Shown here piece by piece: positions 12,341 to 34,793 of a stretch of 64,000 bases of DNA. Position 1 is the first letter of the stretch. Every line of letters starts with the position of its first letter. The notes under the pieces were generated by a model, which saw nothing but the letters and a program-made list of their open reading frames with translations, was not told the origin of the DNA and searched no databases. A program made the position numbers and the translations under genes. This stretch comes from an uncultured Chloroflexia bacterium (GTDB taxonomy: Bacteria > Chloroflexota > Limnocylindria > Limnocylindrales > CSP1-4): positions 512,001 to 576,000 of the forward strand of contig CAVXPZ010000001.1 in NCBI GenBank assembly GCA_963763775.1, read 5' to 3'.

Positions 12341-13165
12341 CTACGACGCCCGGCACGCGAGGTAGACGTACAGCGGCAGGTCCAGCGCGATGTGCCAGGC
12401 GATCGGGATCAGGAGCGACCGGGTGCGGAGCGCGATCCAGCCGGCGATGAAGCCGCCAAGACCGAGCGTCGCCATCAGGACCACCGGCGACCCGCCGACA
12501 TCCGCGCCGCCGTGGGCCAGCCCGAAGACGACCGCCTGCGCGATCAGGGCGATCCACGTCCCGGTGACGCGGCCCGTCCATTGCATCAAGGCCCCGCGGT
12601 ACGCGAGCTCCTCGGCGACACCGTTCGCCGTCGCGAACACGAGGGCCGGCACCAGGAACCCGATGTCGCTCAGGTCGAGCGAGAACGACCCGAAGAACGG
12701 GCGCGCGAGCGCGGCGCCCAGCAAGAGGCCGACCGGCCCCAGGATGATCGCCCCGACGAGGGCGAGCTGGACGACGGAGCGCTTGGGCCAGCGCAGGAGC
12801 AGGTCATGGGGCCGGACCCGGAGCGCCACGGCGAGGACCGCGAGCACGCCGAGGACCAAGGCCGCCTCCGCGAGCCGCCACACGGCCGGCGGCGACGTGA
12901 TGCTCGTGCAGTCCGTGCCGCCCGGCGCCGCCAACGGCGCGCTCAGGAGGCCCCAGCACAGCGCCACCGCCACCGGGACCGGCGCCGCCCAGGCCCACCG
13001 AACGGGCGCGTCACGACGGATCGCGACGACGGTCCCGGCGACCAGCGCCGCCAGGACGAACGGGCGCGTCGGCGCGACGGCCGCCGCAAGGATGATGAGC
13101 GCGATCGGCACGAACGAGCGTGCGAACTCGCGTGTGTCGCGGGGGAGGGCCGTGGAGGCGGGCAC
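12341..13165 (-). CDS. CPBP (CAAX/Abi) intramembrane glutamic metalloprotease
   Basis: EELAYRG, FGLAH, AWHIALD motifs; multiple TM segments. Confidence 0.88.
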   Translation of the reverse strand: MPASTALPRDTREFARSFVPIALIILAAAVAPTRPFVLAALVAGTVVAIRRDAPVRWAWAAPVPVAVALCWGLLSAPLAAPGGTDCTSITSPPAVWRLAEAALVLGVLAVLAVALRVRPHDLLLRWPKRSVVQLALVGAIILGPVGLLLGAALARPFFGSFSLDLSDIGFLVPALVFATANGVAEELAYRGALMQWTGRVTGTWIALIAQAVVFGLAHGGADVGGSPVVLMATLGLGGFIAGWIALRTRSLLIPIAWHIALDLPLYVYLACRAS

Positions 13166-13239
13166 CCGCCGATGATGCCACCGACACTCCCCCGCTATCA
13201 TTCGGTCGCCCATCGGCCCGAGCCGCCCCGGAGGACCCC

Positions 13240-14817
13240 CTGACCGCTCCTGCCAGCGCCGGCGAACCCGCCCGGTCAGACCGCTTCGCCGCGCTCCATC
13301 CGCTGCTGTTCGCGGCGTACGCGGTGCTGTTCCTGTGGTCGCAGAACCTTGGCGAGACCGACCCGAAGGAGGTCGTGATCCCGCTCGTGGTCCTGATCCT
13401 GGCCGCCGCGCTCCTCACGCTCGTCCTGGGCCTCGTGTTCCGGGACCGCCGGCGCGGCGCGATCGTCGCGTCGCCGTTCGTGGTCGGCGTCCTGATGTAC
13501 GGCCACGGAGCGCATATCGCCGCCGCCCTGCACTTGCCGGCGTTGGTCGTGCCGGTCGCGTGGGTCGGGCTGATGGTCGTCGCGGTGGTCGCCGCGATCA
13601 GACTGCCTCGAGCCCGCCTCCGGACGGTCGACGTCGCGCTCGACCGGATCGCCGCGATCCTCGTCGTCGTGACCCTGGTGCTGATCGTCCCATACCAGGC
13701 GAACGTCGCCGTCGGCGGCCGGACGGCGGAGCGCGTCGAACCGCTCTCGAGCACGACCACCGCCCAGAAGCGCGACGTGTACTGGCTCATCTTCGACCGG
13801 TACGGGTCCGACCGGTCCCTCAAGCTCAAGTACGGGCTGGACAACGACCTGACCGGGTGGCTGTCGGAGCAGGGCTGCACGGTGCTCCCGGACAGCCACG
13901 CGAACTACATCCGGACCGTGCTCTCGCTCGAGACGACGGCCCAGATGGCCGACCTCGCCGACATCGCCGAGGACGAGGGCGAGCAGAGCTCGGACCTGTC
14001 GGTCATCAACCAGGGGCTCCAGGACCCGCTCGTGGCGCGCCAGTTCAAGGCGCTCGGCTATCGCTACTACCACGTCGGCGGCTCATGGGGCCCGACCCGC
14101 ATCGACTCGGGCGCGGACGTCAACCTGACCGTGCCCACGATCCCCGGCACCGGCGACTTCTCCGACGCCCTCTACGACGCGAGCGCGTTCCCGTCGGTCG
14201 CGCGACGGCTGCACATCGCGGACGACGCGGGTCGCGAGCGCCAGTTCCTGTACAGCGGCCACGGCCTGGACGCCCTCCAGGGTCTGCGCGACGAGCCCGG
14301 GCCGAAGTTCGTGATGTCGCACATCCTGCTCCCCCACCCTCCCCTGGTCTTCGACCGCGACGGCAGCTACATGACCGGGGCCAAGATGCGCGGGCTCTCG
14401 GGCGACGAGCAGTACGAGCGCCAGCTCGCGTACACCAACTCGCGCATCCGCGAGATCGTGGGCGGCCTCCTGGCCCTCCCCGAGGCCCAGCGGCCGATCA
14501 TCATCCTGCAGGCCGACGAAGGCCCGTTCCCCGACACGTACGAGGTCCAGCGGCGCCAGGACGTCGACTGGGCCGCGGGCGCCACGGAGGACGAGCTCGA
14601 GCAGAAGTACGGGATCCTCAACGCCTGGTGCGTCCCCGGGGGTCAGGACCTCGGTCTCGACCCGAAGATGACGGCCATCAACACGTTCCCGACGCTGTTC
14701 AGCCGCTACTTCGGCATCGGCTACCCGACGCTGCCGGACCGCTCGTTCTCGTCGCACGACTGGTTCCACCCGTACGACCTGACCGACATCACGGACCGGC
14801 TGCCCAGCCTGCGCTGA
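13240..14817 (+). CDS. Membrane-anchored sulfatase/alkaline-phosphatase-superfamily transferase (LtaS/EptA-like architecture)
   Basis: About 5 N-terminal TM helices, then VYWLIFDRY, NYIRTVLS (candidate Thr nucleophile), HILLPHPP, IILQADEG; probable CTG start after GGAGG. Confidence 0.8.
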   Translation: MTAPASAGEPARSDRFAALHPLLFAAYAVLFLWSQNLGETDPKEVVIPLVVLILAAALLTLVLGLVFRDRRRGAIVASPFVVGVLMYGHGAHIAAALHLPALVVPVAWVGLMVVAVVAAIRLPRARLRTVDVALDRIAAILVVVTLVLIVPYQANVAVGGRTAERVEPLSSTTTAQKRDVYWLIFDRYGSDRSLKLKYGLDNDLTGWLSEQGCTVLPDSHANYIRTVLSLETTAQMADLADIAEDEGEQSSDLSVINQGLQDPLVARQFKALGYRYYHVGGSWGPTRIDSGADVNLTVPTIPGTGDFSDALYDASAFPSVARRLHIADDAGRERQFLYSGHGLDALQGLRDEPGPKFVMSHILLPHPPLVFDRDGSYMTGAKMRGLSGDEQYERQLAYTNSRIREIVGGLLALPEAQRPIIILQADEGPFPDTYEVQRRQDVDWAAGATEDELEQKYGILNAWCVPGGQDLGLDPKMTAINTFPTLFSRYFGIGYPTLPDRSFSSHDWFHPYDLTDITDRLPSLR

Positions 14818-14846
14818 GCTGCCGGCGGGCCGGCCGTCGGGAGCCG

Positions 14847-16274
14847 TCAGCGGCGGCGCAGGAGGAACAGCGTGCGGGGGCTGTCCTCGATCGCGGTCTC
14901 GGCCTCGATCGCCCAGCGCTCGGCGGCCGCGGCACGGAACCCCTCGATCGTGTAGTCGGGGAACACGTCGCGGCGGGTCGCGAGCAGCCGGCGGACCATG
15001 ACGTCCTCCTTGGGGACGAACTCGACCACGGCCCACGGGGCCATCGTCGCGAACAGCTCGAGCAGCATCGGCAGCGGCACGTTGCGCGAGATCGCGAGGT
15101 GGTGGACGAGCGCGAGCGCGAGGATCAGGTCCGGGTCCGCCCGTTCGAGCAGCGATCGCCGCTCGAGGTTCGCCCACCCGATGCCCGGACTCGGGTTCGC
15201 GACGTCGAGGATCAGCGGCAGGATATCGGTGCGCCCCTCGGCGACGAGCTGGCGGTAGTTGCGCTCGGCCGCCGCCGGGTCGATGTCGAAGGCGAGCACC
15301 TGGCGGCCCGCGGCGGCGGCGATGCGGCTGTACCGGCCGGTGTTCGCGCCGAGGTCCCAGACTCGGGTCCCGGGCGTTCGCTCGACGAAGTCGCGGACGA
15401 GGGCTTCCTTGGCCTGCGTCGCGCGGTCGTTGTAGCTGGTGTTCTCGGCATAGTCGGACCACTCGGTGCCGCCCGGGCGCCAGGTCAACCCCGCGACCGT
15501 CGAGCGCAGGTTGCCGATCAGCGCGATGAGCCTCGAGCGGCTGATCCGGGCGCGCTTGGCCGCGTGACCGTCGTCGTCATCGGCGGCATGGCGCACCTGC
15601 GCGTTGGCATGGAGGTGGAGGTGCGAGAGGAGCCCGAAGTTCAGCCGGGTGCGCCACGGCACGAGGCCCTTGGCCAGGTCGAGGGGGATCCCGTCGGGGT
15701 CGGCCCGCAGCAGCGAGGAGAGGCGGATGTCGCGGTGGGCCATCACCGCGAGCGGTGCGAGGAAATGCTCGCAGAACTGGCGGTAGGCCACCCACGGCGC
15801 GCCGTCCTCCAGCGGCTCGAACGACAGGGAATCGATCAGGACCGGACGCCCGCCGCGGAACTGGATGTTGTAGGCCGAGGCGTCCTTGAGGGTCCATCCG
15901 GCCGCGAGGGCCTCCAGCTCGATGTCGAGCGTCAGGAGGGCCGCGTCCTTGAGCTCCCCGAAGGTCCACTCGTACGGGTAGGAGATGAATTCGATCGGGT
16001 CGGGCGCGATGACCGCGCGGGCCTCGGGGGTCGCGGCGTCGTCGAGGGCCGCCGGCCGGTAGCCGATGAGCCGGCCCGATGAGATGAGCCGGTCGGCCAG
16101 GCCGCTCGCGAGGAACGCCTCCCAGTCGTCGATCGACGCGGGGCCGATCTGGCGGTACAGGACGCCGTCGCGGCGGTAGACGAAGCCCCCGGGGTCGCGG
16201 TACGACCCGGGGTCGCGCGCGATGGCCGGTCGCGCGTCGCCGGCGGGAGCGTCAGTCGTTGCCGGCTCGGTCAT
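14847..16274 (-). CDS. Kinase-like domain fused to a class I SAM methyltransferase (NoeA-like)
   Basis: N-half SYRDP, LKDASAYNIQF, PVLIDSLSF (kinase catalytic and Mg-loop-like); C-half VWDLGANTG, LAFDID, LALALVHH. Confidence 0.8.
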   Translation of the reverse strand: MTEPATTDAPAGDARPAIARDPGSYRDPGGFVYRRDGVLYRQIGPASIDDWEAFLASGLADRLISSGRLIGYRPAALDDAATPEARAVIAPDPIEFISYPYEWTFGELKDAALLTLDIELEALAAGWTLKDASAYNIQFRGGRPVLIDSLSFEPLEDGAPWVAYRQFCEHFLAPLAVMAHRDIRLSSLLRADPDGIPLDLAKGLVPWRTRLNFGLLSHLHLHANAQVRHAADDDDGHAAKRARISRSRLIALIGNLRSTVAGLTWRPGGTEWSDYAENTSYNDRATQAKEALVRDFVERTPGTRVWDLGANTGRYSRIAAAAGRQVLAFDIDPAAAERNYRQLVAEGRTDILPLILDVANPSPGIGWANLERRSLLERADPDLILALALVHHLAISRNVPLPMLLELFATMAPWAVVEFVPKEDVMVRRLLATRRDVFPDYTIEGFRAAAAERWAIEAETAIEDSPRTLFLLRRR

Positions 16275-16431
16275 CGGCCACGGTCTTCTCCTCCTTGGGC
16301 CCGCGGATCGCGTGCAGGACGCGCGCGATCTGAGTGCGGAAGAAGATCGGGATCGCCACCAGGGTCGCGATGACCGCCTGGATGATCAGACTCCCCGAGC
16401 CTGGATCGATATACGCGAGGTGCTCGTGCAC
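16252..16431 (-). CDS. Small single-TM peptide with YIDPGSGS motif (59 aa, missing from the ORF track)
   Basis: GGAGG RBS plus GTG; MHEHLAYIDPGSGSLIIQAVIATLVAIPIFFRTQIARVLHAIRGPKEEKTVADDRAGND; overlaps the start of the kinase-methyltransferase gene. Confidence 0.8.
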   Translation of the reverse strand: MHEHLAYIDPGSGSLIIQAVIATLVAIPIFFRTQIARVLHAIRGPKEEKTVADDRAGND

Positions 16432-18323: not shown

Positions 18324-19961
18324 CTAGCCGGCGCTGGCCGTGCCGGACTCGACGAGGACCGGCGCCGGCTCGGGCGCCTCCATCGGCGCCGTCGCCACGC
18401 CGTCGTGATGCCGGGCGACGAGGGTCGGGATGACGTCCGACCACGAATGGCCGGTCACTCGGAGACGGAGGCGCCAGGCGGTCTGGACGGCCGCCACGAG
18501 GAGCGTTCGCTCCCGCGCCCGGAGGGTCGGGTAGTCCATCCCGTCGATCACGATCTCCGGCGCGAAGGCGGCGAAAGGCGGGAACGTGTAGGCGTCGTCG
18601 GTGTTCTCGAGCAGCCGGTCGATGGTGAACTCGAAGTCCGGCTCCTCGGTCAAGGGGTCGCCGCGCTCCATGATCACGACCGCGTCGAGCGGCGCGCTCT
18701 CGGAGACGTCGCAGTCGATGAGCGACTGGACGTGGTACTTCGGCGGCGGGATCAGCAGCTGCACCCAGCTGTTGATCGTGACGATCGGCAGGTTCTGGCG
18801 GCCCATCGAGTGCCCGATCGAGCGGCCCTGCTTCGAGTGCACGCGGCTGCGGATGCCGAGCATGATCCGGTCGGCCATCGGCAGGCGCTTGTCGTTGACC
18901 GCGCTCATCGTGTGCGACGAGAGTGTCATCGGCTTGGGGTAGCCGTAGACGGTCCCGTCCGGCGCGACGATCGCCATGTCGTCCGACAGGAAGCCCCAGC
19001 TGTGGTGCATCAGGAGCCGCAGGACCGTGCTGGTCTTGCCGGTGTCGGTCTGCGCCGAGAGGACGATCGCGCCCTGGTCGCCATCGATGGCGGCGCAGTG
19101 GAGCAGCACGTGGCCGCGCGCCACGAGGATGAACCGGAGCAGCGGCTCGACCATGTTCGTGTACAGGACGTGGTGCGACCACGTGAGCAGCCAGTTGGCG
19201 TCGAGCTCGATCGGCCCGACGTCCGGCGCCCCGCCCCCGGCGCCGGGCGGCAGCCGGACGTCGAAGGCGGCCGAGAGCACGCCGAAGTGCTCGCGGTAGC
19301 GGATCGTGTCGTCCTCGCGCCACGTCCGGACGTGGAGCCGCGGGCCGCCGCCCAGCCACTTGCGGCGCACGATGATGTCCGGCTCGACGAGGTGGTCGAC
19401 GTTGAAGGCGGCAAGCTCTGGCAGCCGAACCACCGAGCGGATCTTCAGGATGCTGTGGACGTCGTACTGGTACGAGCCGTCGACCGCGACCTGGTCGCGC
19501 CGGTCGCGGCCGGCCCAGATCCAGTTGTCGGCGATGAGGTAGCGGACGCCGAACGTCACGCCGATCGCCACGAGGTTCGAGACGAGGTAGTAGATCCCGA
19601 ACAGGTCCGTGAGGATGTAGAGGATCGGGACCCGGACGACGAGGGTCGCGATGTTGACCGCACTGAACACGAGATACCGGGTGATCAGGCCGTGCCGCGT
19701 CTCGCGATGACGGAACACGAACAACTCGACCAGGATGAAGTTGTTGAGGGTCGACACCAGCGACGCCAGGATCGCCGAGTAGATGTAGAAGATCCCGAGG
19801 CCTTCGGTGAAGACGTACAGGGCGATCTGGTTGACGAAGATGCCGACGATGCCGACGACGGCGAACTTCGAGGGCGAGAGAAGGGCCCCCAGGAGGCTCG
19901 TGACCTGCGTCCGGCGGTGGCGGCGCACGCTCGGCGGTGACTCGGCGGCAGCTGGGCTCAA
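18324..19961 (-). CDS. GtrA-family membrane domain fused to an HprK-like P-loop kinase domain
   Basis: N-terminal KFAVVG...NNFIL.ELFVF with 4 TM (GtrA); C-terminal LLHCAAI...SAQTDTGKTST...FLSDDM. Confidence 0.8.
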   Translation of the reverse strand: MSPAAAESPPSVRRHRRTQVTSLLGALLSPSKFAVVGIVGIFVNQIALYVFTEGLGIFYIYSAILASLVSTLNNFILVELFVFRHRETRHGLITRYLVFSAVNIATLVVRVPILYILTDLFGIYYLVSNLVAIGVTFGVRYLIADNWIWAGRDRRDQVAVDGSYQYDVHSILKIRSVVRLPELAAFNVDHLVEPDIIVRRKWLGGGPRLHVRTWREDDTIRYREHFGVLSAAFDVRLPPGAGGGAPDVGPIELDANWLLTWSHHVLYTNMVEPLLRFILVARGHVLLHCAAIDGDQGAIVLSAQTDTGKTSTVLRLLMHHSWGFLSDDMAIVAPDGTVYGYPKPMTLSSHTMSAVNDKRLPMADRIMLGIRSRVHSKQGRSIGHSMGRQNLPIVTINSWVQLLIPPPKYHVQSLIDCDVSESAPLDAVVIMERGDPLTEEPDFEFTIDRLLENTDDAYTFPPFAAFAPEIVIDGMDYPTLRARERTLLVAAVQTAWRLRLRVTGHSWSDVIPTLVARHHDGVATAPMEAPEPAPVLVESGTASAG

Positions 19962-20019
19962 ACGGTCCCCTTGGTCGGCGGAGGGTCGGCCGGATGGTAG
20001 GTGACGCTCCGTCGCGGCG

Positions 20020-22227
20020 TCAAACGACCACGGCCCGCGTCAGCGACCGTGGAGGGCCTCCAGCCGCGCCAGGAGGGCGCGCGTCGTCGGGTGAGGACGG
20101 CGTGATCGTCACCCGTTCCCGAAGCCGGTCGGCCGTCTCCCCCACCCCGGGGCCGGCCGCCTCGAGCTTGTCGATGATCCGGTCCAGGACGCCCGGGTCG
20201 ATGAACAGCCGCGCCGGGTCCGGCGCGAAGACGTCGGGATCGATGCGGTAGACCGTGACGGTCATCTGCTCGTCGCCGTAGGGATAGGTCCAGCGCTGGG
20301 CCACGGACGCGCCGGGGGTCGCGTCGAGGGCGGCCGTCATCGCCGGTGTCCCGTCGCCCAGGGTCGCATGGACCCAGTAGCCCGGCCGCAGCGTCTGGAT
20401 CCGCTTGGTCAGCGAGGCCGCATCTCGTTCGTCGAACTGGTCCACGTTGTAGAGGGACGGCGAGATCGCGATCGCGTCGGCGAGCGGACGGTTCGCGGGC
20501 ACCGCGCGCAGCCCCAGCGGCGCCGTGGGGTCGAGGACCGCGGTCCCGGGGCGGATCCGGGTCACCGGGTAGTCGCCGGTCACACGCTGGCCGACGTCGT
20601 AGGCGAGGAACTCGCTGAGGGCGATCCTGGTGCCGGGCGGGACGTTGGCGCGGATCCAGGCGCTCGTCGCATCCACCGCCGCGATCTTCGCGTCGTCGCC
20701 GACGATCGGGCGGGCGGCGGTCGCGAGGGCGATCCCCGCCGCCCCGAAGACCAGCGCGGTGCCCAGGACGGCCGGCAGCCAGGCCCGCCCGCCTCCGCGG
20801 CGGCGCAGGACGAGCACCAGGAGCGCCAGGATCGACGACGCCGACGATGGCGACCAGGACGAAGCCCAGCCGGCGCGGTCCTGACGCCGACGAGGCTCCG
20901 GCGTGCCAGCAGGAACAGGAAGGGCACGACGAGGAGCCCGCCGACGACCGCGGCCACGCTCGCCCACCGTTCCCGCGCCAGGATGCCCGCGGCCACGGCG
21001 ATCCACCCGATCGAGGCGGTCACGGCGAGGACCGGGAAGACCGCGACGTAGTGGCGCGGCGTCTCGCCGATGGCGACGACGAGCAGGATCAGGGGCACGT
21101 TGGCCAGGAGGGTCATCACGAGCGGGAACAGCTCCCGATGTGCCACCGCGGACAGTCGTCGGGCGGCGAGGGCGACGGCCGTCAGGACGATGCCGGGCAC
21201 CGCGAAGGCGAGCGCGCCGGCGAGCTGTGGCACGTAGCTGGCGTACGCCGTGAAGGCCGAGAGCCGGATGACGCTCGCGCCGGCCAGCTTGGGCGCCCGT
21301 GCGTAGACGACCAGCTGCACGCCCGCCCAACCGAGACCCGCCACCCACGCGACGATCACCGGCCACCGCGACGCGCTCACGGGCGCCGGGGCGCGACCAC
21401 GACGCTCGAGGAACGGCTCGATCGACCAGCCCGGCGACGATGGCGACCACGATGGCCACCGCGATCGGCCCGAGCAGCCAGGCCGGTGCCCCGAGTCGGT
21501 AGACGACGCCGGTGATCGAGGCGTGGAGCACGAACCACCAGGCGAGGATGGGCGTGGCGACCAGGAGCGCCACCGCCGCTTGACGCGCGAGGCGCGGCCA
21601 CGGGCGGCCCCAGGCCAGCCCCGCGAGGAACGGGACGGGCGCGAACGGGAGGGCCGTCTCCTTGATCAGGAAGCTGAGGCCGAAGCACGCCCCGGCCAGG
21701 GCCGCCAGCCCGAGGGAGCCGCGATCGACGGCGCGCAGACCGACGACGAGGTAGGCCACCGCGAGCACGGCCGCCGGCAGGTCGATGCCGGCCGTCCGTG
21801 ACAGCGTGAGCAGGTACGGGAACCCCAGGAGCGAGATGGCGGCCAGCGCGCCGACGGCCGGTCGCACCCGCCAGCCGAGCGCCCCGCCGAGCGCGATGAG
21901 TCCCGCCGCCGAGATCGCGTCGATGACCTGCCCGACGCGCACCCCGTCGACGCCGAACCAGGCCTGCGGGGCCGCGAGGACCAGGGGCCAGACCGGCGAG
22001 TGATTCGGGAAGCTGACGCCGAAGACCGTGATGAGACCCTTGCCCGCGAGGATGTTCAGGCCGAGGCCGACGTACTTCGCCTCGTCGGGCGTCTCGAAGG
22101 CCGGCGGCGCCAGCGCGCGGATCACCAGGAAGGCCACGACCGATGCGGCGATCAACCACGCGGCGGCCGTCCGCTCGGTCGGCGCCGTCGAGGCGGCCGC
22201 CGGCCGGGTATCGGGCGCGTCGGTCAT
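20020..22227 (-). CDS. GT-C fold (ArnT/PMT-like) membrane glycosyltransferase (several frameshifts)
   Basis: First-loop TPDEAKY, HSPVWP, LIKET, many TM helices; split across frames near 21400 and 20850. Confidence 0.7.
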
Positions 22228-32461: not shown

Positions 32462-33637
32462 TCACGCCGACTGCACCGCCCCTTCATCGCCGCTCAACCG
32501 GCCAGCGTGAACACGCAATCCGGCCATCGAAGCGGGGAAGGAACCGGCCCGGATGGAGGCTCGGACCCTGGCCATGAAGTCTAGGGTGAAGGTCAGGTTG
32601 TGACAAGTCGCGAGACGGTAGGCGAGCAGCTCCTTGGCCCGGAACAGATGGGCCAGATACGCTCGGGAGAAGCGCCGGCAGGCGAGGCACGGACAGTCCT
32701 CCTGGATGGGTCGCGGATCGTCGAGGAAGGCCCGATTCCGGATGTTGAGGCGACCCCCGGGGACCCAGAGCTGGCCGTTTCGCGCAACGCGTGCCGGCAG
32801 CACGGAATCGAAGAGGTCGACGCCGCGATGCACGGCCTCCAGCAGGTCCGCCGGGGAGCCGAGGCCCATCAGGTAGCGCGGCCGCGGGTCGTCGTCCAGG
32901 AGGGGCACGGCCAGGTCGAGCGTCGCGTCGCGTTGGGCCGGCGTCTCGTCGCCCGCCAGGCCGCCCAGGCAGATCCCGTCGAACGGCAGGCTGGCGATGA
33001 ACCGCGTGGACGCCGCCCGGAGTTCCGGGTCGAGGCCGCCCTGGACGATCCCGAACAGCGCCTGATCCTCCCGCGTGTGCGCCGCCAGCGATCGTTCCGC
33101 CCATCGGTGCGTGCGCTCGGTCGCGTCCGCGACCACGGCCCGCGGCGACGTGGGAAAGACGGGCTGGTCGAACGCCACGGCGACGTCCGAGCCCAACGCC
33201 TCCTGGGCGCCGATCGCGACCTCGGGCGTGAATCGGTGTGTGGAGCCATCGAGGTGGCTGCGGAAGGTCACCCCGTCCTCGTCGACGACCCGGAGGTCCC
33301 CGAGGGACACGACCTGGAACCCTCCCGAGTCCGTGAGGATCGGCCGGTCCCAGTCCATGAACCGGTGGAGGCCGCCGAGCCGTGCGATCCGGTCCGCACC
33401 GGGGCGAAGGTAGAGGTGGTACGTGTTCGAGAGGATGATCGAGGCACCCGTCTCACGGATCTCGTCGGGCGAGAGGGCCTTCACGGTCGCGTTGGTGCCG
33501 ACCGGCATGAACTGCGGCGTCTCCACGATCCCGTGGGTCAGCGTCAGCTGGCCGAGGCGCGCCCGCGTCGATCCGTCGGCCGGCGGGGGCACGAGCACCT
33601 CGTAGCGCGCCGCCCGGCCCTCGTAGGGAGCGGTCAC
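32462..33637 (-). CDS. tgt: Queuine tRNA-ribosyltransferase
   Basis: [34 protein letters not shown] zinc site. Confidence 0.95.
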
Positions 33638-34714
33638 GCGTCCTCCGGGGCGGGGTCGTCCCAGAGGCTGGGCATCCCGGCCTCGGCGCGTCGGGGTGGC
33701 GGGATCTCGTACCCGAGCGCCGCGAGGTGTGCCCGCGCCGCCTCGGTCGCGATGCGGCCCTGCGGCGTGCGGTCGATGAACCCGAGCCGCAGGAGGAACG
33801 GCTCGTAGACATCCTCGATGGTCTCGATCTCCTCGGACAGGACGGCGGCGAGGGCGGCGACACCCACCGGGCCCGGAGGCGAACTTCTGGATGATGGCCG
33901 CCAGCAGCTTCCGATCCGTCGAGTCGAGGCCCTCGTCGTCGATCTCCATGGCCCGCATCGCCTCGCGGGCGCGTGCCTCGTCGACGGTCCCGTCTCCGTG
34001 GACCTGGGCATGGTCGCGGACCCGCTTGAGCAGCCGGTTCACGATCCGAGGCGTGCCCCGGCCGCGTCGCGCGATGGCCCGGGCCGCCGCCGGCTCGATC
34101 TGGACGTCGAGGATCGACGCGGACCGGTCGACGATGGCCGTCAGCTCGTCGTCCGTGTAGAAGTCCAGGCGGTACGTCGCCCCGAACCGGTCGCGGAGCG
34201 GGCTGCTGATGCGGCCGGCGCGGGTCGTCGCCCCCACGACCGTGAACGGCTTGAGGCTGAGCCGCAGGCTCCGGGCGCTCGGCCCCTTGCCGATCATCAC
34301 GTCGAGCGCGTAGTCCTCCATCGCCGGGTAGAGGATCTCCTCCACCGCGCGGTTCAGACGATGGATCTCGTCGATGAAGAGCACGTCCCGCTCGTCGAGC
34401 GAGGTCAGGACGCTCGCGAGATCGCCGGCCCGCTCGATCGCGGGTCCCGAGGTGTAGCGGACATTCACGCCGAGCTCGCGGGCGACGATGGTCGCGAGCG
34501 TGGTCTTGCCGAGGCCGGGCGGCCCGTAGAGGAGGACGTGGTCTGCCGCCTCTCCCCTGCCCTTCGCCGCCTGGAGGAGGATCGACAGGTTGGCCTTGAC
34601 CTCCCGCTGCCCGATGTATTCGTCGAGCGTGCGGGGCCGCAGTGTGCCCTCCACGACGAGATCCGCCTCGTCATCGAGGTCCGGCGACAGGATGCGAGAA
34701 AGATCGTCGGCCAT
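33634..34714 (-). CDS. ruvB: Holliday junction helicase RuvB (frameshift near 33870)
   Basis: [26 protein letters not shown]; EDVYEPFL...RTPQGR is in the next frame. Confidence 0.95.
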
Positions 34715-34746
34715 CGGGCGGGATGGTAGCACGCCGACGACCATTT

Positions 34747-34760
34747 CGCACGCCTGTTCT
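34747..34760 (-). promoter_or_regulatory. Possible LexA (SOS) box upstream of ruvB
   Basis: AGAACAGGCGTGCG versus Gram-positive-type GAAC-N4-GTTC (one mismatch), near the -35 position of a TACCAT -10. Confidence 0.4.
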
Positions 34761-34793
34761 ACATCTCGCCGCACCTCGTCCGCCTCGGATGCG

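What the first reader, a model, noticed from the sequence alone, without database searches (positions are those of the whole stretch)
13240..16431. Peptide / kinase-methyltransferase / membrane transferase module: candidate methyl-phosphate surface-modification system with a peptide carrier
Seen: an unannotated 59-aa single-TM peptide gene (AYIDPGSGS + TM + basic tail) overlaps the start of a 475-aa protein. That protein's N-half has protein-kinase-like motifs (KDASAYN catalytic loop, IDSLSF) and its C-half is a class I SAM methyltransferase. Its N-terminus (RDPGSYRDPGG) echoes the peptide's DPGS. It converges on a 5-TM alkaline-phosphatase-superfamily protein with a candidate Thr nucleophile. 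Known: WbdD couples a kinase and a methyltransferase to make methyl-phosphate glycan caps, and LtaS/EptA-type enzymes transfer phospho-substituents through a Thr intermediate. From memory (unchecked), the two large proteins resemble rhizobial NoeA/NoeB, whose mechanism is unknown. Inference: the peptide Ser, or a lipid it chaperones, is phosphorylated and methylated, and the membrane enzyme transfers the methyl-phosphate to a surface glycan.
Basis: partly seen in the sequence, partly recalled or inferred. Interest (0 to 1): 0.8.

Follow-up and report, generated by a model that had tools for sequence, protein, structure and literature searches.

The report
NoeA/NoeB-type envelope cassette with microprotein
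The three genes form one more copy of a widespread bacterial set: a tiny membrane protein, a fused kinase-like/methyltransferase enzyme and an outward-facing phosphatase-family membrane enzyme, first met as the rhizobial nodulation genes noeA/noeB; its chemistry is still unknown, and the tiny protein may be the enzyme's direct target.

Summary
A 59-aa ORF (16252..16431, -) overlaps by 23 nt a 475-aa protein. That protein is 36% identical over its full length to Sinorhizobium meliloti NoeA. It converges on a 5-TM alkaline-phosphatase-superfamily protein, a remote NoeB relative (hhalign 96.8%).

The microprotein is a real gene. It lies next to the enzyme gene in 82 of 84 loci. On pSymA the same kind of ORF sits between nodL and noeA. 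In 401 Chloroflexota genomes, 49 of 50 NoeA-positive genomes also have the microprotein.

The trio was described by computer analysis in 2022 (PMC9758233). This scan has met it at least nine times on other DNA. So it is a new member of a known, biochemically unsolved kind.

New here:
- A complex prediction places the microprotein's invariant motif and helix on the kinase lobe, beside catalytic-loop Asp131. The score was 0.71 against a best control of 0.00.
- Ser14 is invariant in NoeA-linked copies. It is Gly in a paralogous type that precedes PF01663 enzymes.

The kinase fold could not be checked by fold search.

The parts
16252..16431 (-). 59-aa microprotein gene (GTG start, SD GGAGGA). Motif A6-Y-I-D-P-G-S-G-S14 lies at 16390..16416 and the hydrophobic helix (residues 13-31) at 16339..16395, followed by a basic tail. 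Predicted topology is N-out/C-in.
   Evidence: Found in 82 of 84 loci beside the enzyme gene. 632 homologues of 32-104 aa. Y7, D9, S14 and Q18 are invariant in 34 sequences. dN/dS 0.38.
14847..16274 (-). 475-aa NoeA-family protein with no TM segment. The atypical kinase-like N-half spans about residues 20-265 (nt 15480..16217). Key codons: R41 at 16152..16154, D131 at 15882..15884, N136 at 15867..15869, D148 at 15831..15833. The class I SAM methyltransferase C-half spans about residues 267-475 (nt 14850..15476).
   Evidence: 36% identity to S. meliloti NoeA over the full length. AF2 model with pLDDT 85.2 and pTM 0.86. Methyltransferase fold matches.
13120..14817 (+). Membrane protein of the sulfatase/alkaline-phosphatase superfamily. 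The ORF starts at GTG 13120 or 13132, and the conserved part begins at about 13240-13290. It has 5 TM segments and an outward-facing catalytic domain. Key codons: D186 at 13795..13797, candidate nucleophile T226 at 13915..13917, H366 at 14335..14337, D426-E427 at 14515..14520.
   Evidence: 29 of 37 family members hit Pfam PF00884, although the window's own protein does not. hhalign to NoeB gives 96.8%, E 2.2e-10.
16252..16274 (-). 23-nt overlap between the microprotein's stop region and the enzyme's ATG. This indicates translational coupling.
   Evidence: The same 23-nt overlap occurs between the 71-aa ORF and noeA on S. meliloti pSymA.

Best explanation
This is a Chloroflexota (Limnocylindria-like) copy of the NoeA/NoeB-type cassette. 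I put that identity at about 0.95.

Proposed mechanism (about 0.35):
1. The cytoplasmic NoeA-type enzyme binds the newly made microprotein at the substrate side of its kinase-like lobe. Binding goes through the invariant Y-x-D-P-G-x-G-S motif and the following hydrophobic helix.
2. The enzyme phosphorylates Ser14. Its fused methyltransferase probably methylates that phosphate.
3. The microprotein then inserts into the membrane N-out/C-in, like a small phage coat protein.
4. The modified N-terminus now faces the catalytic domain of the 5-TM alkaline-phosphatase-superfamily enzyme. That enzyme attacks the phosphodiester with Thr226 and passes the group to an envelope acceptor, or removes it.

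Shown here: gene linkage, family membership, conserved residues, and a predicted complex.
Inferred: every chemical step, the order of events, and the acceptor.
For: Linkage:
- The microprotein was found by tblastn in 75 of 80 loci and by HMM in 82 of 84.
- The AP-family gene lies within 4 kb in 57 of 80 loci, in four different arrangements: 23 convergent, 16 divergent, 6 upstream on the same strand, 12 downstream on the same strand.
- In 5 of 5 genomes without a nearby copy, AP-family genes lie elsewhere. In 3 of these they have their own second microprotein gene.
- In 121 Chloroflexota genomes, all 10 NoeA-positive genomes have both partners. In 401 genomes, 49 of 50 do; the exception is a contig-edge fragment.

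Binding:
- Complex prediction scored 0.71/0.71/0.73 against a best control of 0.00. Partner pLDDT was at least 61, and the runs shared at least 77% of contacts. That mark was reached by 116 of 157 solved complexes and 2 of 215 mismatched pairs.
- The interface covers peptide residues 6-8, 10-26 and 29. On the enzyme it covers 130-131, 160-166, 168 and 217-255.
- It includes residues invariant on both sides: Y7, S14 and Q18 on the peptide; D131, W161, Y164, R165, Q166, H218, H222, Q226 and L252 on the enzyme.

Ser14:
- It is Ser in 34 of 34 aligned copies.
- The paralogous type has Gly at that place. This type is found in the 4 NoeA-less genomes where the motif could be read, and as extra copies in 4 NoeA-positive genomes. 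It precedes PF01663 enzymes in 3 of 3 tested cases.

Topology:
- No basic residues lie before the helix and 4 lie after it.
- Proteobacterial and Patescibacterial copies carry a signal-peptide-like segment ending in AHA directly before the Y.
- The AP domain is outside by the positive-inside rule.

Chemistry hint:
Against: - No modification has been observed.
- The complex score is a model's own confidence. The two control partners were unrelated small proteins, not other hydrophobic helices, so a generic fit of a helix into a groove is not excluded.
- Which peptide residue touches D131 was not reported.
- The top methyltransferase matches are tied within 1 Z with ordinary small-molecule methyltransferases.
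- Overlapping, coupled genes suggest a 1:1 subunit rather than a turnover substrate.
- Modifying the peptide before membrane insertion is an added assumption.
- The Ser/Gly split follows the type of neighbouring enzyme and comes from few lineages: families f8 and f60 for the NoeA-less cases. It is therefore weak as statistics.
- The kinase fold of the N-half was not confirmed here. An HMM search against PDB found nothing. hhalign against two APH-family proteins of the same genome gave probability under 1%. No fold search of the N-half could be run.
Confidence: 0.35

Rival explanations
1. The microprotein is a non-substrate subunit. It would be a membrane anchor or scaffold that tethers the soluble kinase/methyltransferase to the membrane, and perhaps joins it to the AP-type enzyme. 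The enzymes would act on something else, such as a lipid-linked glycan (as WbdD does) or another envelope polymer.
For: - The genes overlap by 23 nt and are translationally coupled, here and in S. meliloti.
- The predicted interface is large: 101-116 contacts, mostly along the hydrophobic helix.
- The same microprotein family also precedes AP-family and PF01663 enzymes where no NoeA is present. A general partner role therefore exists.
- The enzyme has no TM segment of its own.
Against: - If the helix spans the membrane with the basic tail inside, the motif is outside. The model instead puts the motif beside the cytoplasmic catalytic loop.
- The cytoplasmic tail is the least conserved part.
- The invariance of Ser14, specific to the NoeA-linked type, remains unexplained.
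Confidence: 0.3
2. Lipid-donor cycle. The enzyme phosphorylates and methylates a membrane lipid head group on the inner leaflet. For example, diacylglycerol would be converted to phosphatidic acid and then to its methyl ester. The outward-facing AP-type enzyme then uses this lipid as donor, as EptA uses phosphatidylethanolamine and LtaS uses phosphatidylglycerol. The microprotein would be an accessory.
For: - The AP-family protein has the 5-TM plus outside-domain build of EptA/LtaS-type transferases. PMC9758233 supplement passages report EptA and YejM as the best remote matches of the Legionella counterpart.
- That such enzymes take their group from a phospholipid is established knowledge (recalled).
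Against: There is no direct evidence. It does not explain the predicted docking of the motif at the kinase site or the invariant Ser14.
Confidence: 0.15
3. The microprotein is a ribosomal peptide precursor. It would be tailored by the kinase/methyltransferase and released as a signal or antimicrobial.
For: It is a small gene directly beside a modifying enzyme. There is a weak NCBIfam hit of the methyltransferase half to a daptide-type RiPP methyltransferase (E 0.0063, far below its cut-off).
Against: - The conserved part is the N-terminal motif plus a membrane helix, and the tail is variable.
- No protease or exporter gene is conserved nearby: the CPBP protease is found in only 17 of 80 loci, all close relatives.
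- The peptide also pairs with AP-type enzymes.
Confidence: 0.05

Closest known systems
S. meliloti nod-box n5 operon nodL-(71-aa ORF)-noeA-noeB on pSymA, and the Legionella anisa Lani_1193/1194/1195 neighbourhood (PMC9758233)
   Same: - NoeA: 36% identity over 466 residues, E 5e-87.
- A small ORF with YLDPGTGS plus a helix plus a basic tail overlaps noeA by 23 nt, as in the window.
- NoeB is a membrane protein with a Pfam Sulfatase domain and a remote relative of the window's protein.
- The paper reports a small (~65-residue) hypothetical protein in 65% and an AP-fold protein in 38% of 816 neighbourhoods. It also reports the kinase residues R(for K72)/D/N/D (section 8 read whole; supplement passages).
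   Different: - The AP gene here is convergent, not downstream in the operon. It belongs to a subfamily with D-E-G where NoeB has D-H-G.
- There is no nodL and no link to symbiosis.
- The microprotein here lacks the signal-peptide-like N-extension.
- The function of noeA/noeB is itself unknown (passage in bioRxiv 10.1101/2021.11.23.469708).
WbdD of E. coli O9a (bifunctional kinase/methyltransferase that caps polymannan with methyl phosphate)
   Different: - The domain order is reversed: in WbdD the methyltransferase comes first (4ax8 residues 4-211 match the window's 264-475).
- No Wzm/Wzt transporter or mannosyltransferase genes are in the window.
- PMC9758233 treats the NoeA family as a distinct kinase-methyltransferase family (passages).
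- The WbdD mechanism itself is recalled, not tested here.
EptA / LtaS / YejM-type membrane enzymes of the alkaline-phosphatase superfamily
   Same: - 5 TM segments followed by an outward-facing domain.
- A conserved Asp, Thr and Asp-x pattern.
- Weak profile matches to sulfatases and LtaS over the correct region, E 0.085-0.3.
- Pfam Sulfatase hits in 29 of 37 family members.
   Different: - There is no significant sequence match of the window's own protein to any Pfam or NCBIfam model.
- Glu replaces the usual His after the second Asp.
- No structure model could be made here, so the active site was not compared.

Membership tests
NoeA / Lani_1194 kinase-methyltransferase family | Full-length sequence similarity to S. 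meliloti NoeA | tested here: met
   BLASTP gives 36% identity, 466 aligned residues, E 5e-87. tblastn finds noeA on 57 Sinorhizobium plasmids at 97% coverage.
NoeA / Lani_1194 kinase-methyltransferase family | Kinase-like catalytic residues: Arg in place of PKA K72, and equivalents of D166, N171 and D184 (as the paper defines them) | tested here: met
   R41, D131, N136 and D148 are invariant in 28 sequences. The D-x4-N spacing is kept. Mapping them onto the PKA residues rests on the paper's description, not on a superposition made here.
NoeA / Lani_1194 kinase-methyltransferase family | Protein-kinase-like fold of the N-half | tested here: inconclusive
   The AF2 model is confident (pLDDT 85.2). 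Its order of strands and helices fits a two-lobe kinase. However, both fold searches were filled by the methyltransferase half, with rows spanning only 267-475. The N-half could not be folded alone: the machine gave no answer. The HMM search against PDB and hhalign against APH proteins found nothing.
NoeA / Lani_1194 kinase-methyltransferase family | C-terminal class I SAM methyltransferase domain | tested here: met
NoeA / Lani_1194 kinase-methyltransferase family | Conserved neighbours: a small hypothetical protein and an AP-fold membrane protein | tested here: met
   82 of 84 and 57 of 80 loci respectively. 49 of 50 NoeA-positive genomes have the microprotein.
NoeB | Sequence relationship to S. 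meliloti NoeB | tested here: met
   The relationship is only remote. BLASTP gives E 1e-4 over 89 residues. Profile against NoeB gives probability 96.8%, E 2.2e-10, 355 columns including the membrane part. This is the same superfamily and build, but a different subfamily.
NoeB | G-D-H-G metal-site motif near the end of the catalytic domain | tested here: not met
   The window's family has Q-A-D-E-G, with D426 E427 G428 invariant. NoeB and the second Chloroflexota/Gemmatimonadota subfamily have GDHG.
Sulfatase / EptA-LtaS type (Pfam PF00884) membrane enzymes | Match to PF00884 | tested here: inconclusive
   The window's own protein has no match at E 0.01. 29 of 37 aligned family members match, the best at 6.4e-12.
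Sulfatase / EptA-LtaS type (Pfam PF00884) membrane enzymes | Nucleophile Thr/Ser and metal-binding Asp residues in the fold's usual places | tested here: inconclusive
   D186 and T226 are nearly invariant, and H366, D426 and E427 are invariant. T226 aligns with a Thr of NoeB. No structure model could be made, so their placement was not checked.
WbdD-type O-antigen terminators | Methyltransferase-kinase-coiled-coil order, and linkage to an ABC-transporter-dependent polymannan gene cluster | tested here: not met
   The domain order is reversed. The window's other genes are housekeeping genes: VanW-like, HflX, MiaA, MiaB, RNase Y, RecA, RuvB/TGT.

The most novel reading that the evidence does not exclude
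The microprotein is a protein counterpart of a lipid carrier.
- NoeA-type enzymes load a methyl-phosphate (or phosphate) onto Ser14 in the cytoplasm.
- The short acidic N-tail then flips across the membrane, as phage coat proteins do.
- Outward-facing NoeB-type enzymes use the loaded peptide as donor to decorate envelope or secreted molecules.
This would be a previously unknown way to export an activated phospho-group. It would also give rhizobial noeA/noeB their long-missing biochemical function.
Probability: 0.2. Interest if true: 0.85.

Novelty: new member of a known kind. Interest (0 to 1): 0.5.

Why it matters
The cassette is very common:
- At least 8000 close NoeA-like proteins in the first search.
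- 9529 clusters of the AP-type partner.
- 50 of 401 Chloroflexota genomes.
- Per PMC9758233, more than 1200 species, including rhizobia and Legionella.

Yet noeA/noeB have had no known biochemistry since 1995. If the microprotein is the enzyme's direct target, there is a simple test: two proteins, ATP, SAM and a mass spectrometer. That test could open up the whole family. This particular copy adds nothing unusual beyond a convergent gene order and a D-E-G variant of the metal site.

Tried and rejected
Kinase fold by sequence:
- A profile of the N-half against PDB sequences gave only a chance hit (uridylate kinase, E 0.94).
- hhalign against two APH-family proteins of the same genome gave probability 0.4-0.6%.
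- The ESM Atlas returned only unnamed clusters for residues 15-275.

Structure jobs:
- The first two jobs were interrupted.
- The full-length enzyme was later folded.
- Jobs for the N-half alone and for the AP-type protein were never accepted.
- So the AP fold and the kinase fold were not checked by structure here.

Other checks:
- PDB search with the enzyme sequence gave only weak methyltransferase hits.
- Fused forms of the microprotein: of 15 longer hits, the 4 examined were three frameshift artefacts and one read-through into an AP-like gene.
- Consensus promoter and terminator scan: none found.
- Expression: no RNA holder was listed among sequencing runs.
- Literature on the motif: six spelling variants, searched anywhere in words, found only unrelated linker sequences.
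- Later work on the family: the searches found only PMC9758233 and rhizobial genome papers.

Rejected ideas:
- The neighbouring CPBP protease, PLP enzyme and GtrA-like gene are not part of the unit. They occur in 17, 14 and 0 of 80 loci.
- The cassette does not sit in a glycan cluster in this window.
Full report
**What is there.** The window is about 71% G+C. Between 13120 and 16431 it holds three ORFs with the codon bias of real genes:
- A 59-aa ORF at 16252..16431 (-).
- A 475-aa ORF at 14847..16274 (-), which the first ORF overlaps by 23 nt.
- A + strand ORF at 13120..14817, which converges on the 475-aa ORF.

The nearest relatives of these genes are in Limnocylindria/Chloroflexota metagenome-assembled genomes. 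Each of the three genes is single-copy in the window's own 3.3-Mb assembly.

**The microprotein is a real gene.**
- It reads MHEHL-AYIDPGSGS, then a 19-residue hydrophobic segment, then a basic tail. There are no K/R residues before the segment and 4 in the 20 residues after it.
- It has a good Shine-Dalgarno sequence.
- In 80 loci that encode a relative of the 475-aa protein, tblastn finds the microprotein in 75.
- An HMM finds it in 82 of 84 loci: the 80, three plasmid loci and the window. Of the two misses, one has only 12 nt of upstream DNA.
- A database search gave 632 homologues of 32-104 aa.
- Y7, D9, S14 and Q18 are invariant in 34 aligned copies.
- The core has a median dN/dS of 0.38.

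**The 475-aa protein is a NoeA-family enzyme.**
- At least 8000 database proteins match it, and most are misnamed 'PrmA'.
- tblastn against plasmids finds 65 records, 57 of them Sinorhizobium pSymA, under genes annotated noeA.
- Identity to S. meliloti NoeA is 36% over 466 residues, E 5e-87.
- These match what PMC9758233 (section 8 read whole) describes for the Legionella homologue Lani_1194: Arg in place of the catalytic Lys, and equivalents of PKA D166, N171 and D184.
- An AF2 model is confident (pLDDT 85.2, pTM 0.86). The order of its secondary-structure elements fits a two-lobe kinase followed by a Rossmann-type domain.
- The C-half is clearly a class I methyltransferase.
- I could not confirm the kinase fold by fold search. 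Both searches were filled by the methyltransferase half. The N-half could not be folded alone, and the sequence-profile routes found nothing.

**The membrane protein.**
- It has five hydrophobic segments with basic inside loops, and a 375-residue outside domain.
- Its family is large: 9529 clusters at E no higher than 0.001.
- The window's own copy matches no Pfam or NCBIfam model. However, 29 of 37 aligned relatives match Pfam Sulfatase.
- A profile matches S. meliloti NoeA's operon partner NoeB with probability 96.8% over 355 columns. NoeB itself carries a Sulfatase domain.
- Conserved residues are D186, T226, H366, D426 and E427. Glu stands where NoeB and a second subfamily have His.
GTG 13120 or 13132 are the in-frame common start codons.

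**The three genes travel together.**
- The AP-family gene lies within 4 kb in 57 of 80 loci, in four arrangements: 23 convergent as here, 16 divergent, 6 upstream on the same strand, and 12 downstream on the same strand. In 23 loci it is not in the flank.
- In five genomes of the last kind, AP-family genes were found elsewhere in 5 of 5. In three of them a second microprotein gene sits in front of them.
- In an even sample of 121 Chloroflexota genomes, 10 have the enzyme, 13 the microprotein and 12 the AP family. All 10 enzyme-positive genomes have both partners.
- In 401 genomes, 50 have the enzyme and 49 of those have the microprotein. The exception is a fragment at a contig end. Related genomes are not independent, so these are counts, not statistics.
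- On S. meliloti pSymA, a 71-aa 'hypothetical protein' with AHA-YLDPGTGS lies between nodL and noeA and overlaps noeA by the same 23 nt.
- A deltaproteobacterial plasmid has the order Sulfatase-domain gene, enzyme, microprotein.
- The rest of the window is housekeeping, and no glycan cluster is present.

**Already known.**
- PMC9758233 (2022) reported the Lani_1194/NoeA family as a kinase-methyltransferase fusion.
- It reported a small hypothetical neighbour (Lani_1193) in 65% and an AP-fold neighbour (Lani_1195/NoeB) in 38% of 816 neighbourhoods, with function unknown. I saw supplement passages only.
- Ardourel et al. 1995 was not seen; it is cited through these papers.
- My searches found no later biochemical work and no paper naming the motif.
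- This scan has reported the same cassette at least nine times on other genomes. I reached the same identification independently before reading those notes.

1. A predicted complex of the enzyme and the microprotein passes its controls.
   - Scores were 0.71, 0.71 and 0.73 against a best control of 0.00. Partner pLDDT was at least 61, and the runs shared at least 77% of contacts. That mark was reached by 116 of 157 solved complexes and 2 of 215 mismatched pairs.
   - The model supports binding; it does not show it.
   - The interface is not the basic tail. It is the invariant motif plus the hydrophobic helix (residues 6-8, 10-26, 29).
   - On the enzyme it lies against 130-131 (the catalytic-loop Asp), 160-166 (after the D148 segment, where protein kinases hold their substrates) and helices 217-255.
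2. There are two microprotein types.
   - The Ser14 type is the only one found beside NoeA-type genes. It is also found beside 5-TM AP-family genes.
   - The other type has Gly at position 14 (M-YIDPNTGG...). It precedes PF01663 phosphodiesterase-family genes in 3 of 3 cases tested.
   - The Gly type is the only one I could read in NoeA-less genomes (4 genomes). It also occurs as an extra copy in 4 NoeA-positive genomes.
   - Y7, D9 and Q18 are shared by both types.
3. The final topology is probably N-out.
   - The basic tail follows the helix.
   - Proteobacterial and Patescibacterial copies carry a signal-peptide-like segment ending AHA just before the Tyr.
   - Gemmatimonadota copies start M-YIDP.

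**Reading.**
- The identification as a NoeA/NoeB-type cassette is secure.
- For the mechanism I favour, at about one in three, the following: the enzyme binds and modifies Ser14 before the microprotein inserts, and the outward-facing AP-type enzyme then acts on the modified N-terminus.
- The main rival, nearly as likely, is that the microprotein is a structural subunit or anchor and the substrate is something else.
- Three points count against my reading. No chemistry has been seen. The control partners were not hydrophobic helices. Overlapping coupled genes fit a subunit better than a substrate.
- The transfer to a surface glycan is not supported by anything in this window.

Noticed in passing
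window 18324..19961 (-): A 545-aa protein has an N-terminal GtrA/DPMS transmembrane domain (Pfam E 2.2e-20). Its central part is weakly like HprK-related kinase A (NCBIfam E 2.5e-09, far below the cut-off). It is not conserved next to the cassette: 0 of 80 loci.
   Followed up: partly
window 19961..22224: About 2.2 kb with very high G+C (0.745-0.752) and strong AT skew (0.3-0.4). The ORFs tested there gave no Pfam match.
   Followed up: no
window 32462..34774 (-): One 770-aa ORF carries RuvB domains (residues 45-279) and a complete queuine tRNA-ribosyltransferase domain (404-749). It could be a fusion, a missed stop or frameshift, or an ORF-calling effect.
   Followed up: no
L098 2980-3171 and 3175-4998; L109 2189-2680 and 2684-4507: Gly14-type microprotein ORFs lie in the same reading frame as the following 608-aa PF01663 phosphodiesterase-family ORF. 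Only one stop codon separates them, and the enzyme ORF has no signal peptide. This could be tight coupling or stop-codon read-through giving an N-terminally anchored enzyme.
   Followed up: partly
L059 881-1051 and 1039-1332: One relative has a second microprotein copy about 3 kb upstream of the main one. It is followed by a fragment like residues 10-109 of the enzyme. The main copy there is frameshifted.
   Followed up: no
G001, G002, G003 (loci L088-L093); G014, G063, G121: AP-family genes are often multiplied, with 3-7 matches per genome and tandem arrays of 3-4. The enzyme gene stays single-copy.
   Followed up: partly
window 12341..13213 (-) and 13120..13213: The CPBP (Rce1-like) protease ORF and the long form of the AP-type ORF overlap head to head by about 90 nt. 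At least one of the two listed starts is probably too far upstream.
   Followed up: no
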